Below, piece after piece: positions 1-9,871 of a stretch of 64,000 bases of DNA. The notes beneath the pieces are model-generated. The model had not been told where the DNA came from. It ran no database searches and saw only the letters and a list, made by a program, of their open reading frames with translations. The position numbers and the translations under genes are program-made. Every line of letters starts with the position of its first letter. Within the stretch, counting starts at the first letter, position 1. The DNA is from Alkalispirochaeta sp. (lineage in GTDB: Bacteria > Spirochaetota > Spirochaetia > DSM-27196 > Alkalispirochaetaceae): positions 32,001 to 96,000 of the forward strand of contig CBDESZ010000018.1 of the NCBI GenBank assembly GCA_965242725.1, read 5' to 3'.

Positions 1-40
1 CGAATACTATTCCGACGATTATTCGAGTACCTGTCCTCAT
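1..40 (-). CDS. 5' end of a CDS running off the window edge (MRTGTRIIVGIVF...), possibly secreted or membrane protein
   Basis: ATG at 40 on the minus strand preceded by a G-rich RBS-like run; open to position 1. Confidence 0.4.
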   Translation of the reverse strand, partial: MRTGTRIIVGIVF

Positions 41-345
41 AAAGCCCCCCAAAGCAAATGTATGTATACGTGCGCTTCCACGCGCACCTTGTTCCACGAA
101 CAAGGATGAACCTGAGATGTAAAAATTAGACTTTATGAATTAATACTTTGCAGTCGAGTAATATAAACAGACTATCACGATTCATTGAATTATCAACCAT
201 AAATATCGAAATCGAAAAAACAATTTTCGCCGGTATTCCATTTCGAACTTTATGACAGAGTCACCCCTGGATTCCTCGAAGAATGCCGTCGACATCAAAC
301 AGGTGAAGTCGCGGTGAACAGGCGGAAAGTGGGAAGGGCAGTGAA

Positions 346-1107
346 TTACATAAACGCCTTGAATATAAGCCCGGCAAGGGTTGCGAGAAGCGTCGAAAGC
401 AGTGTTCCGATAAGAAAATACTCGGCAAAGCCCCGGTCATCGAGCTGTTGAAACCGTGCTATCCCCTTTGCCACAAGCACATATCCGATCGCGTTCATAT
501 GACCGGTCAGGACCAACAGAAAAACGATTGTTCGTTCAAGACATCCGATAACCCTTCCGCGGGCGGGCTCGTCGATTTCCGCGGAGTCCCGGTCTGGAAG
601 GGCAACCGGTGACGGGGGCATGAGGTTGGTGCTTTTCAGAATCAGGGCGATGGGATGGTTGATTTCAAACGCGGCAAGGTACGAACCCGCAAGTGCGACA
701 AGTACGGCGTGGATCTGTGCCGCCGACAGAAGCTGTACAACCGGATTTGTCCCGATCAATCGCGTGAGCCGCAAAAAGGCGTGATTGAATCCACCGGTAA
801 TCGCCGGGTGTCCAAGGACAAATACGCCGATCAGAATATTGACGAGCAATGACAGTGTCCGGCCCGCGTTTCGATTAGCGACGGCCTTTGAAATGACGCC
901 GTGTATCCCGAATGTCATGACGGTTATGATCATAACGACGGCGACGTTCTCCCTCGTCATGACCGGCAGGATAATTGCCCCGGCGACGAGGACTGGAACG
1001 GCCGCGGACATGATTTTTTGCCCACGCCGGTTCTGCCGCACCCATTCCATTGCAGCCGGAACCATGAGTACGACGAAGAGCGTCCAGAACACATGGGTCG
1101 TCGTCAT
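346..1107 (-). CDS. DUF3307/SatE-like multi-pass membrane protein
   Basis: Several hydrophobic helices; C-terminal GRVIGCLER...AKGIARF...AEYFLIGTLLS motif typical of DUF3307-like proteins; ATGA overlap with the upstream satD. Confidence 0.7.
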   Translation of the reverse strand: MTTTHVFWTLFVVLMVPAAMEWVRQNRRGQKIMSAAVPVLVAGAIILPVMTRENVAVVMIITVMTFGIHGVISKAVANRNAGRTLSLLVNILIGVFVLGHPAITGGFNHAFLRLTRLIGTNPVVQLLSAAQIHAVLVALAGSYLAAFEINHPIALILKSTNLMPPSPVALPDRDSAEIDEPARGRVIGCLERTIVFLLVLTGHMNAIGYVLVAKGIARFQQLDDRGFAEYFLIGTLLSTLLATLAGLIFKAFM

Positions 1108-1760
1108 CGGGACGCCTCTTCAGTCGACCTCAGGTCCATACCTTTCTCAAACTCCTCTGTCAGGATACGAATCAACTGGACGACATCATCCAATGCATGT
1201 CGTGCAATCCCTTTATTCACCGCCCGAGGCGTGACGGACAATTCGGCTGCGATATCTTTGGTGGATGCCCCGGCCATGAGTCTCCGGAGGACGGTGAGGT
1301 TGTTGCGGCTCAGGTGGGCAATGACGTTTCCCATGAGCCTCAGAGATCCATTCATCAGCTGAATGGCGGGGAGATCAGGGGCGGTCACCTGGATTGTGTC
1401 TGTTGACGCCTGCTTCATCCCGTCTATAAGCCGTCGGGCCGCATAAAACGCCGGTCCGTCCATTTCCAGTGCCGCCTGTGTGTTGATATCGGTACTTAGC
1501 GCTCCGTAGGATAGTGCACATCTCACCTGCACCGGATGAATTGCGTGAACAATGCTCATGAGATCCGCAAAAATCGTATCCACGGCTCCGTACACCGCCT
1601 GAAACTCATCTCCCAGGGTGATGGTATAGGGTGAAAGGAGAGACGGCCCCGAGGACGTATTGATTTCCTCAAGTTGCCCTTTGAGGTTCCGTTGAAACTC
1701 CGCGCGCTGCCCGATCTTCTTTGATCCGATGATATCCGCGATAAGAACGACAACGTTCAT
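1104..1760 (-). CDS. satD: SatD family protein (nucleotidyl-cyclase/palm-like N-terminus plus C-terminal HTH)
   Basis: IADIIGS and TITLGDEFQ motifs, DGPAF motif, C-terminal STKDIAAELSVTPRAVNK HTH. Confidence 0.8.
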   Translation of the reverse strand: MNVVVLIADIIGSKKIGQRAEFQRNLKGQLEEINTSSGPSLLSPYTITLGDEFQAVYGAVDTIFADLMSIVHAIHPVQVRCALSYGALSTDINTQAALEMDGPAFYAARRLIDGMKQASTDTIQVTAPDLPAIQLMNGSLRLMGNVIAHLSRNNLTVLRRLMAGASTKDIAAELSVTPRAVNKGIARHALDDVVQLIRILTEEFEKGMDLRSTEEASR

Positions 1761-1766
1761 GGTTTA

Positions 1767-1795
1767 ATCATAACATTGCCCCGGAACGGTGACAA
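1767..1795 (-). promoter_or_regulatory. sigma70-type promoter of satD (TTGTCA-N17-TATGAT, extended -10), leaderless
   Basis: -35 at 1790-1795, -10 at 1767-1772, ATG 6 nt downstream, no SD. Confidence 0.6.
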
Positions 1796-1797
1796 CG

Positions 1798-1870
1798 AGA
1801 ACCATATAGGTTCTACATATATAAAGGAACTAAATAGGTTCTTATGGCGAGTAGGAACGCAATTGGTTCC
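1798..1870. repeat. Three palindromic GAAC-N7-GTTC boxes at exact 28-bp period (putative operators)
   Basis: AGAACCATATAGGTTCT 1798-1814, GGAACTAAATAGGTTCT 1826-1842, GGAACGCAATTGGTTCC 1854-1870. Confidence 0.8.
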
Positions 1871-1956
1871 CGTGAACGGTAGCCCGGTATATAATGGCAT
1901 ATTGGTAACACAAACCCGAGGGAACGGTGTTATATGGAGTAACGGAGGAACATAAA

Positions 1957-2622
1957 ATGACTCGACGATTGACAGGTGTATTTCTGGTCCTGAATGTTGT
2001 GGTCGTAGCAGGCCTTTTTGCCGGTCCGGCAGAAACGGAGTATCAGTGGGACCTCTCCGAGGAGGAGATGGTGCCGTACAACGGCGTGATTGAGGACTTT
2101 CTCGCGCAGCGTGAGGCGGAATCGATTGGCGAAATCACCATCGGGGAGATGCGTGAATTGGGTTCACGGCTTTCCGTACTGGCCCAGGAGGAAGATTACG
2201 TGCGCAGCGCCCGGCACGCGTCCCAGGCCTTTCCCGGTTCCGGACATCTGATGATCGGAGAAAACGGAATAGGTGCAGCCTATGTCACCGGATCGATCCT
2301 GGTTGTTGCAGCAACCGTTGTTGGCGCCTATTTTGTGTTGCCCGAGGCGGTACAGTTTCACGAGCTTGATTATATAAACGATTCCTTCGGCGATATCGAA
2401 CGAGCGTGGCGGGGTGAGAGTATTGCTTCCATCGCGCCGGCATTCGGTGTACTCCTTGCCGGCGGTGTTGTTCACGCGCTTCTTGGGGCGATTTCGTCGG
2501 AAGACGCGGAAAGACGGGCGCGGGAGCAGATCGTTTCGGGTGAAAAACGGTTTGAACCCACGCCGTTTATATATCCCGATGCCACGGGGCGGTTGATTCT
2601 GGGTGCCCGGATCGGGCTGTAA
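1957..2622 (+). CDS. Hypothetical exported/membrane protein
   Basis: GGAGG RBS before ATG 1957; signal-peptide-like N-terminus and two hydrophobic segments. Confidence 0.7.
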   Translation: MTRRLTGVFLVLNVVVVAGLFAGPAETEYQWDLSEEEMVPYNGVIEDFLAQREAESIGEITIGEMRELGSRLSVLAQEEDYVRSARHASQAFPGSGHLMIGENGIGAAYVTGSILVVAATVVGAYFVLPEAVQFHELDYINDSFGDIERAWRGESIASIAPAFGVLLAGGVVHALLGAISSEDAERRAREQIVSGEKRFEPTPFIYPDATGRLILGARIGL

Positions 2623-2653
2623 CGGCGTCGGCGGAATATTTGGTGGAGGAACG

Positions 2654-3289
2654 ATGAAGGAAGAAACATCAGCTTTTCCGGCGACGTTGTACGTTGACTA
2701 TCAGGAGCAGTCAGATCGCTTTACCGTCCTGTTACGACTGCTTTTGGCGATTCCCATACTGATTATCCTGGGATTGATGGTTGCCGGCGACGGGGACACT
2801 CATCACGAGACGGCAGAAGGGGTTCGTATTCAGGGAACGGCAATTGTGCTATTCCTGCCGACGATGCTCATGCTCGTCTTCCGCCGGAAATATCCCCGGT
2901 GGTGGTATGACTGGAACGTCGAGTTTACCCGGTTTACAAACCGGATCGGCGCCTATCTGCTTCTCCTCCGGGATGAGTACCCCTCCACGGACGAGGAGCA
3001 GGCGGTCCACATTAGGTTGTTCTATCCCGACGTAGAACACGATCTGAATCGATGGCTGCCGTTGATTAAGTGGTTCCTGGCGTTGCCGCACATTATCGTG
3101 CTCCTGATACTCTGGGCGGTGGTCATCATCTGTACCGTTTTTGCGTGGTTTTTCATCCTCGTTACGGGACGGTATCCCCGGAGGCTCCATCCCTTTGTGG
3201 AGGGCGTCATGCGGTGGAGTCTCAGGACGGCGGCATACGCATTCCTTCTGACCACCGATACCTATCCGCCCTTTTCCCTGCAGGAATAG
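2654..3289 (+). CDS. DUF4389 domain membrane protein
   Basis: Two internal repeats ending YLLLLRDEYP and YAFLLTTDTYPPF; GGAGG RBS. Confidence 0.8.
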   Translation: MKEETSAFPATLYVDYQEQSDRFTVLLRLLLAIPILIILGLMVAGDGDTHHETAEGVRIQGTAIVLFLPTMLMLVFRRKYPRWWYDWNVEFTRFTNRIGAYLLLLRDEYPSTDEEQAVHIRLFYPDVEHDLNRWLPLIKWFLALPHIIVLLILWAVVIICTVFAWFFILVTGRYPRRLHPFVEGVMRWSLRTAAYAFLLTTDTYPPFSLQE

Positions 3290-8459: not shown

Positions 8460-8855
8460 CTACTCCCAGAGTCTTTCGGCGCCGAGGGTGCTTAACGCTT
8501 CATCAATGCTTGCAACGGGCAGTTCTTCCATGACGCTCTGTGCTGCAAGCATTCTGTCAAAGGGATCCCGAAGGGTTCCGGGAATTGCCCCGGCCCGCAG
8601 TGCGTGCCCGGGGGTGATAGACAACTGGAGAAATCCGTCGGTGCGTATACGCTCGTCCCATTGGGCAATGATCGTACCACCGGAGGGCAGTTTCCCGATC
8701 CTGAACTTGGTCGATATCTCCCATGCCGACGCGGCGCTTACCAGAACCGTAGTATGCGGGTCCTTGAGGAGTCCGAGCACTCGGGGACTCAAGCGTGCGG
8801 GTTGGGACCACCACCACAGCAGTGTGTGGGTATCTAGAAGGATGCCTCCCGTCAT
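8460..8855 (-). CDS. vapC: PIN-domain VapC toxin
   Basis: LLDTHTLLWW, SAASAWEI..K, RDPFDRML.AQ; ATGA overlap with the antitoxin. Confidence 0.9.
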   Translation of the reverse strand: MTGGILLDTHTLLWWWSQPARLSPRVLGLLKDPHTTVLVSAASAWEISTKFRIGKLPSGGTIIAQWDERIRTDGFLQLSITPGHALRAGAIPGTLRDPFDRMLAAQSVMEELPVASIDEALSTLGAERLWE

Positions 8856-9076
8856 CGTTCCCACTGGTCCAGCTCCTCCTCCGGCAGTGGTTCAAAAAAA
8901 GTTTCCGGGATCGTGTCGGGATATCGTCCCGGGCGCCGTTCTTCCGGTTGTTCCAACGGCACCAAGCGAGCCCAGGGGATTCCCGCTTTGGCCACAACGA
9001 TCTCCTCTCCGCTGTGCGCGCGATCGACGAGCCGGGAAAACGCCGTCTTCGCTTCGTGAATGTTTACGATCTTCAT
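8852..9076 (-). CDS. Phd/YefM-family antitoxin
   Basis: VNIHEAKTAFSRLVDRAHSGEEIVVAKAG.P.ARLVP. Confidence 0.9.
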   Translation of the reverse strand: MKIVNIHEAKTAFSRLVDRAHSGEEIVVAKAGIPWARLVPLEQPEERRPGRYPDTIPETFFEPLPEEELDQWER

Positions 9077-9082
9077 AGTATG

Positions 9083-9111
9083 AAATTAGTCCGAGCGGAT
9101 GACTAAGTCAA
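9083..9111 (-). promoter_or_regulatory. TA promoter TTGACT-N17-TAATTT with overlapping operator palindromes (TTAGTC..GACTAA; TGACTAAGTCA)
   Basis: Direct inspection; ATG 6 nt after the -10 (leaderless). Confidence 0.6.
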
Positions 9112-9183
9112 CCAAGCATGTGCAGCCCCCAGGATTGGAGACGCAATCCCTTTACCCGTACCGTTTGTGTTTGGCACTATTAA

Positions 9184-9261
9184 CCTGCAACTCGGTGGAG
9201 AGTCTGCTTCCGATGGGAAGATGGGAATTGCTTTGATGTCGAGATTACTGATTATCATTGA
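9184..9261 (+). pseudogene. higB: C-terminal remnant of HigB (RelE-like) toxin
   Basis: In-frame WRVCFRWEDGNCFDVEITDYH* matches the HigB C-terminal consensus; in-frame stop at 9181 and no start; directly upstream of higA. Confidence 0.8.
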
Positions 9262-9282
9262 TTAGTCGTTGGAGGAAGGCAC

Positions 9283-9585
9283 ATGAAAAACGAGTTAATT
9301 GAACTTTCTACACCGGGGGAGGTGTTGAAAGAGGAGTTTCTAGACCCGATGGAAATAACGCCTTATGCGCTTGCCAAGGCTATATTTGTCGATCCTCCCA
9401 GGATTGATGCGATTATCAAGGGGAGGAGAAGAATCACTGCAGATACGGCGATGAGGCTGTCCAGATTTTTCGGAACTACTCCCGGATTCTGGATGAACAT
9501 GCAGAGCCGTTACGATATCGAGTTACTCCAGGAAGAGAAAGAAGAGGAGTACGCGGAAATCACCAGACATCACGTTGCGTCGTGA
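9283..9585 (+). CDS. higA: HigA-family addiction-module antitoxin (XRE HTH)
   Basis: TPGEVLKEEFL, ITADTAMRLSRFFGTTPGFWMNMQSRYD. Confidence 0.9.
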   Translation: MKNELIELSTPGEVLKEEFLDPMEITPYALAKAIFVDPPRIDAIIKGRRRITADTAMRLSRFFGTTPGFWMNMQSRYDIELLQEEKEEEYAEITRHHVAS

Positions 9586-9610
9586 CCGCGGAGTATTGCG
9601 ATCATTTCAA

Positions 9611-9757
9611 TATAGAGCGGGCAGGACTCGCCCTCTGGTCGGCCACATCGTGTGGCCTCCCGCCGGGCCGCCTTCGGGGCTCTCGGCACATCCTGTGCCT
9701 CGGCGCTCCAGGTATTCGCGCACGCCCCTGCGTTTCGAGTCCTGCTTCCACTTCCAT
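9611..9757 (-). repeat. tRNA-linked structured element: inverted and direct degenerate copies of the tRNA-fMet 3' end enclosing small hairpins
   Basis: Direct copy 9611-9630 (17/20 identical to 9797-9816), inverted copy 9733-9749, internal hairpins 9641-9657 and 9685-9699. Confidence 0.75.
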
Positions 9758-9797
9758 AAAAAAAAGACCGTAGCCCAAAAGGACTACGGTCTTTTTT
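9758..9797 (-). terminator. Intrinsic (bidirectional) terminator after tRNA-fMet
   Basis: A8-GACCGTAG..CTACGGTC-T6 hairpin. Confidence 0.85.
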
Positions 9798-9798
9798 A

Positions 9799-9871
9799 TA
9801 GCAGGGGCAGGACTCGAACCTGCGACCTCCGGGTTATGAGCCCGACGAGCTGCCAACTGCTCTACCCTGCG
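9799..9871 (-). tRNA. tRNA-fMet (initiator, CAT)
   Basis: Cloverleaf; CTCATAA loop; C1 unpaired with U72; three consecutive G-C pairs in the anticodon stem; GGTTCGAGTCC T-arm; CCA not encoded. Confidence 0.95.

What the first reader, a model, noticed from the sequence alone, without database searches (positions are those of the whole stretch)
346..1760. SatD (cyclase/palm-like plus HTH) with a membrane partner: candidate nucleotide-signalling or defence-like two-gene system
Seen: two translationally coupled genes (ATGA overlap). The first keeps two acidic motifs, IADIIGS and LGDEF, and ends in an HTH; the second is a multi-TM DUF3307-like protein. Established: a beta1 Asp plus a G-D/E hairpin is how class III cyclases, GGDEF and Cas10/mCpol palm domains bind catalytic metals, and synthase-plus-TM-effector pairs are the architecture of CBASS and Pycsar. 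As far as I know SatD is described only loosely, as acid-tolerance associated. Inference: this may be an uncharacterised second-messenger synthase with a membrane effector, coupled to transcription by its own HTH.
Basis: partly seen in the sequence, partly recalled or inferred. Interest (0 to 1): 0.7.

Follow-up and report, generated by a model that had tools for sequence, protein, structure and literature searches.

The report
Cyclase-fold regulator restraining a membrane partner
Two overlapping genes encode a DNA-binding protein built on a nucleotide-cyclase fold and a membrane protein; the first appears to control their shared promoter and to keep the second in check, like an antitoxin, which could explain why the same gene is oddly essential in some streptococci.

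Summary
Observation confirmed, with one correction. satD (1104-1760, minus; PF16264 plus HTH) overlaps a 253-aa membrane gene by ATGA. Its N-domain has the cyclase/GGDEF/Cas10 palm fold, with invariant D9 and D51. The partner is not a DUF3307 member: it lacks that His/Asp module and keeps only the C-terminal SatE module, which is the whole partner in some relatives. Such arrays precede 75 of 81 loci, and HTH residue 179 tracks the operator's outer base. Published Tn-seq tables show satD essential and satE dispensable in S. pyogenes and S. agalactiae, partly so in S. mutans, not in S. equi: an antitoxin-like asymmetry that argues against CBASS-type activation. Best reading: an autoregulated, horizontally moved cassette in which SatD restrains SatE. 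A Panoptes-like inhibitory nucleotide signal remains possible (about 0.2): 2 of 11 plasmid-collection loci flank CBASS or Pycsar, but 0 of 42 chromosomal relatives do. No chemistry is shown. This scan reported the family and its operators before on other DNA; the Tn-seq asymmetry was not found in those notes.

The parts
1104..1760 (-). satD, 218 aa: cyclase/GGDEF/Cas10-type palm domain plus C-terminal HTH
   Evidence: ORF; PF16264 E 4.1e-26 and GerE HTH; model pLDDT 94.1; fold
1317..1760 (-). Palm (nucleotide-cyclase fold) domain, residues 1-148; D9 (1734-1736), G50-D51-E52 (1605-1613), R80 (1521-1523), D101-G102, F105, R109 (1434-1436)
   Evidence: structure matches span model residues 1-149; conservation in 151 representatives and 16 divergent members
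1200..1316 (-). LuxR/GerE-type helix-turn-helix, residues about 149-187; recognition-helix residue R179 (1224-1226)
   Evidence: co-variation of residue 179 with the operator's outer base
346..1107 (-). satE-like membrane partner, 253 aa, about 7 hydrophobic segments, no DUF3307 His/Asp module
349..690 (-). Conserved C-terminal SatE module (residues 140-253: E148, G184, I187, G188, E191, R192, K214, A228, E229, Y230, G234, T235, S238 invariant)
   Evidence: profile match to a canonical DUF3307 protein, probability 98.9, E 3.3e-17; stands alone as a 138-aa partner in a Sphingomonas plasmid
1104..1107 (-). ATGA stop/start overlap (translational coupling)
   Evidence: same overlap in 38 of 73 related pairs
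1115..1121 (-). Ribosome-binding-like GAAGAGG for the partner, inside the end of satD
   Evidence: read from the sequence; function inferred
1767..1795 (-). Sigma-70-type promoter: -35 TTGTCA (1790-1795), 17-bp spacer, TG-extended -10 TATGAT (1767-1772), 6 nt before the ATG, so probably a leaderless mRNA
   Evidence: 10 of 12 consensus; the scan finds as many sites in shuffles, so the call rests on position; same geometry in close relatives; start site not measured
1799..1813 (.). Operator palindrome 1, GAAC-N7-GTTC, centre at -46, ending 3 bp from the -35 hexamer
1827..1841 (.). Operator palindrome 2, 28 bp from box 1
1855..1869 (.). Operator palindrome 3, 28 bp from box 2

Best explanation
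An autoregulated restraint cassette (toxin-antitoxin-like logic). SatD dimers bind the three palindromes at the shared promoter and set the level of a coupled satD-satE message. SatE is a membrane protein whose conserved C-terminal module slows or stops growth when it escapes that control, so SatD behaves as the antitoxin. The palm domain of SatD binds a metal-nucleoside triphosphate, and may turn it over, as the switch that tunes DNA binding or releases SatE under a stress that is still unknown. Shown here: gene anatomy, fold, conserved residues, operator array, its co-variation with the HTH, patchy spread. Taken from published tables on homologues: satD essential, satE dispensable. Inferred: direct binding of SatD to the boxes, repression as the sign of control, SatE toxicity, nucleotide binding.
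For: Operators: three exact boxes at 28-bp spacing, the only cluster among 84 such sites in the genome. An AACY-N5-RGTT array with 26-30-bp links precedes 75 of 81 loci, against 0 of 1489 control windows and 8 of 4050 shuffles. HTH code: Arg179 goes with G at the box's outer position in 19 of 20 loci, and 0 of 47 non-Arg loci have G boxes; it is the best predictor among all columns (MCC 0.96), with a nested switch in L030. Boxes overlap the called core promoter in 54 of 69 loci with a promoter call (heuristic). Asymmetry: S. pyogenes satD is the single essential accessory gene (PMC11323703 passages), essential in 9 of 9 data sets while its only operon partner is non-essential in 9 of 9. PMC4440532 names them satD E and satE NE. 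S. agalactiae orthologues: essential and non-essential. S. mutans insertions are depleted in satD (0.41/0.21/0.21) but not satE (1.46/1.31/1.66). The partner module was not found without a satD-like gene: 6 of 401 phylum genomes, 3 of 22 family genomes, plasmid loci. satD without the partner occurs in 4 of 77 informative loci. The cassette sits at three different sites in three genomes of one genus.
Against: In S. equi both genes are non-essential, and S. mutans satD does not reach that study's essential (<0.01) or compromised (0.01-0.1) bands in vitro. The nine S. pyogenes data sets come from four strains and include those of PMC4440532, so they are not independent. The streptococcal proteins were not fetched and belong to another clade. 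In the window's own clade no box overlaps the core promoter (centres -46, -74, -102), which also fits activation. The HTH co-variation rests on only 2 independent well-supported pairs and is not significant by the tree test. No palindrome array was found before satD in plasmid loci L111, L114 and L115. Neighbourhoods are mostly housekeeping.
Confidence: 0.45

Rival explanations
1. Panoptes-like inhibitory signalling. SatD is an active synthase that constantly makes a nucleotide which keeps the SatE module shut. Depletion of the nucleotide, for example by phage sponge or nuclease proteins aimed at CBASS or Pycsar, opens SatE and aborts infection. The HTH only sets the dose.
For: Fold match to OptS/mCpol Z 10.1, rmsd 2.7, 105 aligned, tied with cyclases and GGDEF domains. 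D9, S13, G50 and D51 are invariant in 16 of 16 divergent bacterial and archaeal members. Synthase-essential, effector-dispensable genetics is what Panoptes shows (PMC12657230 passages) and fits. Two of 11 distinct plasmid-collection loci lie directly beside a cyclic-nucleotide defence operon: CBASS cyclase, E2 fragment and 2TM effector in L111; PycC, E2 and PycTM in L114. Both lack a detectable palindrome array. The SatE module keeps invariant charged residues (E148, E191, R192, K214, E229) that could form a ligand site.
Against: 0 of 42 chromosomal loci of this clade have a CBASS or Pycsar cyclase within two genes. The window's genome (92% complete) gave no SMODS match. The partner has no beta-barrel, CARF or other known sensor domain. 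Phe105 stands where class III cyclases keep a catalytic Asn (mapping from recalled motifs), and R109 and D101 vary in divergent members. There is no background rate for plasmid genes next to defence operons.
Confidence: 0.2
2. A benign one-component regulator. SatD senses a nucleotide or metal-phosphate signal with a non-catalytic cyclase-fold domain and regulates a small membrane channel or transporter. The Tn-seq lethality is a side effect of overproducing a membrane protein once its repressor is lost.
For: Autoregulation evidence as above. Housekeeping neighbours and stable synteny within Opitutae, Saccharospirillum and Ignavibacteria groups. No copy in 50,697 phage records or in viral contigs. 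satD is non-essential in S. equi.
Against: Very patchy spread (6 of 401 phylum genomes) and changing insertion sites suit a mobile cassette. Enzyme-like invariance of the acidic residues. No transporter or channel fold match for the partner.
Confidence: 0.25
3. One reading: on infection SatD makes a cyclic nucleotide that switches SatE on.
For: Cyclase fold plus a dedicated membrane partner; two plasmid copies beside defence operons.
Against: Predicts a dispensable synthase, contrary to (unless the lethality comes wholly from lost repression). No PADLOC cyclase or effector model matches. No such neighbours in 42 chromosomal loci.
Confidence: 0.07

Closest known systems
SatD/SatE of the streptococcal sat ('secretion and acid tolerance') locus; Pfam SatD PF16264, DUF3307 PF11750
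   Same: SatD family member above cut-off; same order and overlap (S. pyogenes satD 879875-880540, satE 880533-881249); shared C-terminal partner module with canonical DUF3307 proteins.
   Different: The partner lacks the DUF3307 His/Asp module. No ffh or ylxM was seen among the genes flanking the pair. The family has no characterised activity in the papers found.
Panoptes (mCpol/OptS with 2TM-beta/OptE)
   Same: Stand-alone palm-fold protein with a membrane partner; synthase-side gene needed only when the partner is present (PMC12657230 passages); fold Z 10.1.
   Different: SatD carries an HTH and an operator array; no mCpol Pfam match; the partner is all-helical with no beta-barrel sensor; usually not beside CBASS.
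Class III nucleotidyl cyclases (bPAC, Rv1900c, Ma1120), GGDEF domains, GTP cyclohydrolase III, Cas10/Cmr2 palm
   Same: Same fold: Foldseek E 8.6e-6 to bPAC; Z 12.4 GCH III, 11.4 bPAC, 11.0 guanylyl cyclase, 10.8 Cmr2, 10.6 GGDEF. Beta-1 Asp and G-D hairpin retained; Arg80 in an RxGxGxG strand like the pyrophosphate-binding Arg (recalled motif).
   Different: 8-21% identity; no Pfam match to these families; Phe in place of the class III Asn and no obvious base-selecting Lys/Asp pair (recalled mapping); fused HTH.
Type II toxin-antitoxin operons and C-protein-controlled restriction-modification operons (recalled)
   Same: Regulator first, coupled second gene, palindromic operators at a leaderless promoter, regulator essential only with its partner.
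   Different: The regulator has an enzyme-like palm domain; the partner is a polytopic membrane protein; toxicity and direct binding are untested.

Membership tests
SatD (PF16264) | Profile match above the curated cut-off | tested here: met
   92.4 bits against cut-off 29, E 4.1e-26
SatD/SatE-type operon | Coupled downstream membrane gene with the GxxIGxLER...AK..ARF...EY.LxGTLxS module | tested here: met
   73 of 80 loci
SatD/SatE-type operon | Upstream array of palindromes at 28-29-bp spacing | tested here: met
   three boxes; 75 of 81 loci
DUF3307 (PF11750) | N-terminal His/Asp module and Pfam match | tested here: not met
   no match; 0 of 80 clade members; motif in 0 of 68; canonical controls do match
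Class III nucleotidyl cyclase | Palm-type cyclase fold | tested here: met
   shared equally with GGDEF, GCH III, Cas10 and mCpol
Class III nucleotidyl cyclase | Two metal-binding Asp (beta-1 and G-D hairpin) | tested here: met
   D9 and D51 at 0.99 in 151 representatives, 16 of 16 divergent members; metal role inferred from the fold
Class III nucleotidyl cyclase | Transition-state Asn/Arg pair and base-selecting Lys/Asp or Glu/Cys | tested here: inconclusive
   R109 fits and F105 replaces Asn by motif spacing (recalled); no residue-level superposition was returned
Class III nucleotidyl cyclase | Cyclic nucleotide product from NTP | not testable with these tools
   needs enzyme assay
GGDEF diguanylate cyclase | GG[DE]EF signature and PF00990 match | tested here: not met
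   LGDEF; no PF00990 match at E 0.1
Panoptes (mCpol plus effector) | mCpol family synthase | tested here: not met
   no mCpol profile match; fold similarity only, Z 10.1
Panoptes (mCpol plus effector) | Effector with 2TM plus beta-barrel or CARF sensor | tested here: not met
   all-helical model; no Pfam, NCBIfam or PADLOC match
Panoptes (mCpol plus effector) | Catalysis-dependent suppression of effector toxicity | not testable with these tools
   only gene-level asymmetry in streptococcal homologues
Panoptes (mCpol plus effector) | Co-location with CBASS-type systems | tested here: inconclusive
   not at this locus or in 42 chromosomal relatives; yes in 2 of 11 plasmid-collection loci
CBASS / Pycsar | CD-NTase or PycC cyclase with cognate effector family | tested here: not met
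   only weak HTH-region hits, E 0.012 or worse; the same library finds real CBASS and Pycsar genes
Toxin-antitoxin system | Antitoxin essential only with the toxin; toxin dispensable | tested here: inconclusive
   met in S. pyogenes and S. agalactiae tables, partly in S. mutans, not in S. equi; no double-mutant data; not this organism
Toxin-antitoxin system | Autoregulation through operators at the operon promoter | tested here: met
   (comparative evidence; binding not measured)
Toxin-antitoxin system | Demonstrated toxicity and neutralisation | not testable with these tools
   needs expression tests

The most novel reading that the evidence does not exclude
SatD-SatE is a widespread, unrecognised inhibitory-signalling system: a self-regulating palm-fold synthase makes a nucleotide that holds a new class of all-helical membrane effector (the 110-140-residue SatE module) shut. 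Loss of the nucleotide triggers growth arrest, and the system sometimes guards CBASS or Pycsar. It would be a second, independent Panoptes-like design, the first with a transcription-factor synthase, and would explain the essentiality of streptococcal satD.
Probability: 0.2. Interest if true: 0.85.

Novelty: new variant of a known kind. Interest (0 to 1): 0.6.

Why it matters
SatD is a large family (3853 representatives at 50% identity) in bacteria and archaea, named only for sitting next to ffh in S. mutans. The restraint reading turns an unexplained published result, an accessory gene that is essential in S. pyogenes, into a simple testable prediction: removing satE should make satD dispensable. 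It also narrows the effector to a small conserved module of no known fold, and offers an HTH-operator code (Arg179 to G) that can be tested in vitro. If the palm domain is active, it may make a new signalling nucleotide.

Tried and rejected
No solved relative by sequence: only HTH-level hits, best E 0.066. The partner model found no fold match: Foldseek 0 hits at E 0.001, best VIA Z 7.4; this does not show that the fold is new. The ESM Atlas returned only SatD clusters and unnamed clusters, with DUF3307 at 0.76 as a lead. No RNA holder was listed, so expression and the start site are open. No Rfam match in 1-3000. No copy in phage records or viral contigs. The PycC search of the own genome rang nowhere, controls included, so it is uninformative. 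The divergent gene (1957-2622) as a conserved target was rejected: its homologues in 4 relatives examined (of 5 found) have no boxes upstream. A wider SatD regulon was rejected for this genome, since the paired-box pattern occurs once; single sites are not excluded. SatD-partner fusions were not found among 6 longer hits (weak test). Supplements of S. canis (PMC13167042) and S. uberis (PMC12174587) Tn-seq papers held none of the search terms. The original sat-operon paper (PMC95171) is not held. The neighbour scans used 150 of 165 proteins picked by a heuristic ORF caller from 46 of 80 loci (34 near-duplicates skipped by hand), covering 42 loci; wrong-frame picks lower their sensitivity.

Full report
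WHAT IS THERE. The window holds two minus-strand genes, 1104-1760 (218 aa) and 346-1107 (253 aa), joined by an ATGA overlap. The first is SatD (PF16264, E 4.1e-26) with a LuxR/GerE-type HTH at residues 149-182. The host appears to be a spirochaete: the closest named loci are Spirochaeta and Alkalispirochaeta genomes. Flanking genes are unrelated (DUF4389, glyoxalase, aldehyde dehydrogenase, YceI, UbiA). GC content is 54-55% in the two genes, 44% in the promoter and 57.7% in the genome.

THE SATD PROTEIN. An AlphaFold2 model from 109 sequences has pLDDT 94.1. Foldseek's best matches are class III cyclases (bPAC E 8.6e-6, Rv1900c; 72 matches at E 0.001). The exhaustive aligner gives GTP cyclohydrolase III Z 12.4 (rmsd 3.1, 114 aligned), bPAC 11.4, a guanylyl cyclase 11.0, Cmr2 10.8, GGDEF 10.6 and Panoptes OptS 10.1. 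These are close to tied, so the fold places SatD in the palm superfamily without naming a product. In 151 representatives D9, D51, E52, Q54, R80, D101, G102, F105 and R109 are conserved at 0.99-1.0. In 16 far more divergent bacterial and archaeal members only D9, S13, G50 and D51 stay invariant; R80, D101 and R109 vary. By recalled class III motifs, D9 and D51 are the metal ligands, R80 the pyrophosphate Arg and R109 the transition-state Arg, while F105 stands at the catalytic Asn and no base-selecting pair is evident. That mapping is inference. The site looks built to bind metal and triphosphate; catalysis is open.

THE PARTNER. It has no Pfam, NCBIfam, PADLOC or PHROG match. Its homologues include DUF3307 proteins, but the shared part is the C-terminal half (profile probability 98.9, E 3.3e-17). 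DUF3307 itself covers only the first 100-120 residues of those proteins, and that His/Asp module also matches a 119-position phage family (phrog_2470). In this clade the module is gone: 0 of 80 Pfam hits, motif in 0 of 68. In two alphaproteobacterial plasmid loci the partner is little more than the C-terminal module (138 aa with an ATGA overlap in L110). So what travels with SatD is the C-terminal module, with invariant E148, G184, I187, G188, E191, R192, K214, A228, E229, Y230, G234, T235 and S238. Its model (pLDDT 91.2) is all helical.

Earlier notes of this scan mentioned operator arrays, and I tested that here. Three exact GAAC-N7-GTTC palindromes lie at 1799, 1827 and 1855. They are the only ones within 120 bp of each other among 84 in the genome, and the paired pattern occurs once. 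The nearest ends 3 bp from a -35 TTGTCA, followed by a TG-extended -10 TATGAT 6 nt before the ATG, which suggests a leaderless message. An AACY-N5-RGTT array with 26-30-bp links precedes 75 of 81 loci (129 of the spacings are 28 or 29 bp), against 0 of 1489 control windows and 8 of 4050 shuffles. Divergent members keep the period with other arms (Vibrio and haloarchaeal plasmids). The base outside the core follows HTH residue 179: Arg with G in 19 of 20 loci, no G-majority boxes in 47 other loci, Val mostly with T, and Gln or Lys with C or A. Residue 179 is the best predictor of all columns (MCC 0.96), and L030 switched both traits inside a Gln/A clade (67 of 68 loci scored). The tree shows 4 changes but only 2 independent well-supported pairs, too few for significance. 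A heuristic promoter call has a box overlapping the core promoter in 54 of 69 loci, which suits repression. In the window and four close relatives the boxes only abut the -35, so activation is not excluded here.

DISTRIBUTION. The partner follows satD in 73 of 80 loci. Three of the other seven end at a contig edge and four lack it. In 401 genomes of the phylum, 6 carry SatD above cut-off and each has the partner module next to it, cut short in G068. The only other partner hit was a weak N-terminal match in an unrelated frame. In the family both genes occur in the same 3 of 22 genomes, at three different sites. There is no copy in phage records or viral contigs. In the plasmid collection 9 records match SatD and 10 match the partner module. 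In the partner-only hits a SatD-like gene lies upstream, by profile in three and by motif alone in the Bacillus one.

PUBLISHED GENETICS. No paper in the library joins SatD with DUF3307 or, relevantly, with cyclase (7 unrelated papers). 'SatD family' occurs in one paper (passages read) and DUF3307 in one (listing only). Searches listed no mechanistic study; subscription journals and bioRxiv supplements were not covered. PMC11323703 (passages and supplements) reports satD as the single essential accessory gene of S. pyogenes, present in 178 of 249 genomes (preprint passages). Its tables give satD as essential in 9 of 9 data sets and the only other gene of its operon as non-essential in 9 of 9. 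PMC4440532 (supplement) names the adjacent pair satD, essential, and satE, non-essential; its data are among those nine. PMC5452409 (supplement) gives the S. agalactiae orthologues as essential and non-essential, and both S. equi orthologues as non-essential. PMC5806208 (supplement and passages) gives S. mutans observed/expected insertion ratios of 0.41, 0.21 and 0.21 for satD and 1.46, 1.31 and 1.66 for satE, which is depletion but not essentiality. The passages I read do not interpret this as an antitoxin pattern. PMC13492114 (passages) lists SatE among vesicle proteins. PMC12657230 (passages) shows that Panoptes mCpol suppresses a toxic membrane effector through its catalytic activity.

DEFENCE CONTEXT. 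Of 150 neighbours within two genes of 42 chromosomal loci, none is a CBASS or Pycsar cyclase, a restriction enzyme-methylase pair or a Cas gene cluster. Toxin-antitoxin-type genes occur at six loci (L004, L005, L014, L021, and RosmerTA at L019 and L028); other PADLOC hits are generic domains or weak single matches. The window's genome gave no SMODS match. In contrast, 2 of 11 distinct plasmid-collection loci examined lie directly beside such systems: a CBASS operon in Arthrobacter L111 and a Pycsar operon in Sphingomonas insulae L114. The Agrobacterium copy lies among toxin-antitoxin genes. I have no background rate, so this is a lead only.

MECHANISM. The simplest reading of all this is restraint. 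SatD binds the array and limits a coupled message; SatE's C-terminal module harms growth when uncontrolled; the palm domain is a nucleotide-dependent switch (0.45). The Panoptes-like variant adds a catalytic step that directly inhibits SatE (0.2). A benign regulator-transporter pair with incidental overexpression toxicity is nearly as good (0.25). CBASS-type activation fits worst (0.07). The Tn-seq data cannot separate the first three; the promoter-swap and Asp-mutant rescue test can.

VERDICT. A real, unstudied cassette of the SatD/SatE family, in a clade whose partner has shed DUF3307. The family and its operators were reported before by this scan on other DNA. Two further look-ups for essentiality or toxin-antitoxin wording in those notes returned nothing. 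New variant of a known kind; interest 0.6.

Noticed in passing
L111:77-4493 (Arthrobacter plasmid CP017422.1): satD-satE pair divergent from a CBASS operon (cyclase E 3e-106, E2 fragment, 2TM effector), next to transposases; no palindrome array found.
   Followed up: partly
L114:388-6738 (Sphingomonas insulae plasmid NZ_CP048421.1): Divergent satD-like gene (DS in place of DE) and DUF3307 gene convergent with a complete Pycsar operon, near an HTH plus IrrE/ImmA pair.
   Followed up: partly
L110:4645-5061, L108:4676-5082, L116:4105-4554: Minimal partners of about 140-150 aa made of little more than the C-terminal SatE module; the Agrobacterium one is annotated with a late start.
   Followed up: partly
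L109:3790-3970 (Halorientalis plasmid): Archaeal satD-DUF3307 preceded by four GTTCG-N10-CGAAC boxes, mostly at about 29-bp spacing: the array design extends to archaea with other arms.
   Followed up: partly
P0154; P0155-P0159: A tandem SatD-SatD protein (424 aa) and SatD fused to TPR repeats (494-530 aa).
   Followed up: no
window 1104-1760: This SatD departs from its family at three strongly conserved positions: E99 (Gly in 87%), L150 (Trp in 95%) and N182 (Tyr in 86%).
   Followed up: no
L016 and L020 against L023, L032, L034, L055: Within Saccharospirillum the partner is present about 190-210 bp downstream in some species and missing in others, while satD and its boxes remain.
   Followed up: no
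window 1927-2622 (+): Divergent 221-231-aa gene with no family match, found in 6 of 22 family genomes; a TATAAT at 1890-1895 lies about 20 bp from the distal box.
   Followed up: partly
window 8460-9871: A PIN-domain gene (8460-8864, minus), a HigA-like HTH_3 gene (9283-9585) and tRNA-Met (9799-9871): toxin-antitoxin-type genes beside a tRNA, about 7 kb from satD.
   Followed up: no
G000:C18:20534-22863 (about 10 kb left of the window): Transposase plus ATP-binding helper pair, IS21-like by sequence reading.
   Followed up: no
L019:11163-12615, L028:12017-12673: RosmerTA genes (RmrT, RmrA) within two called genes downstream of the pair in two Saccharospirillum loci.
   Followed up: no
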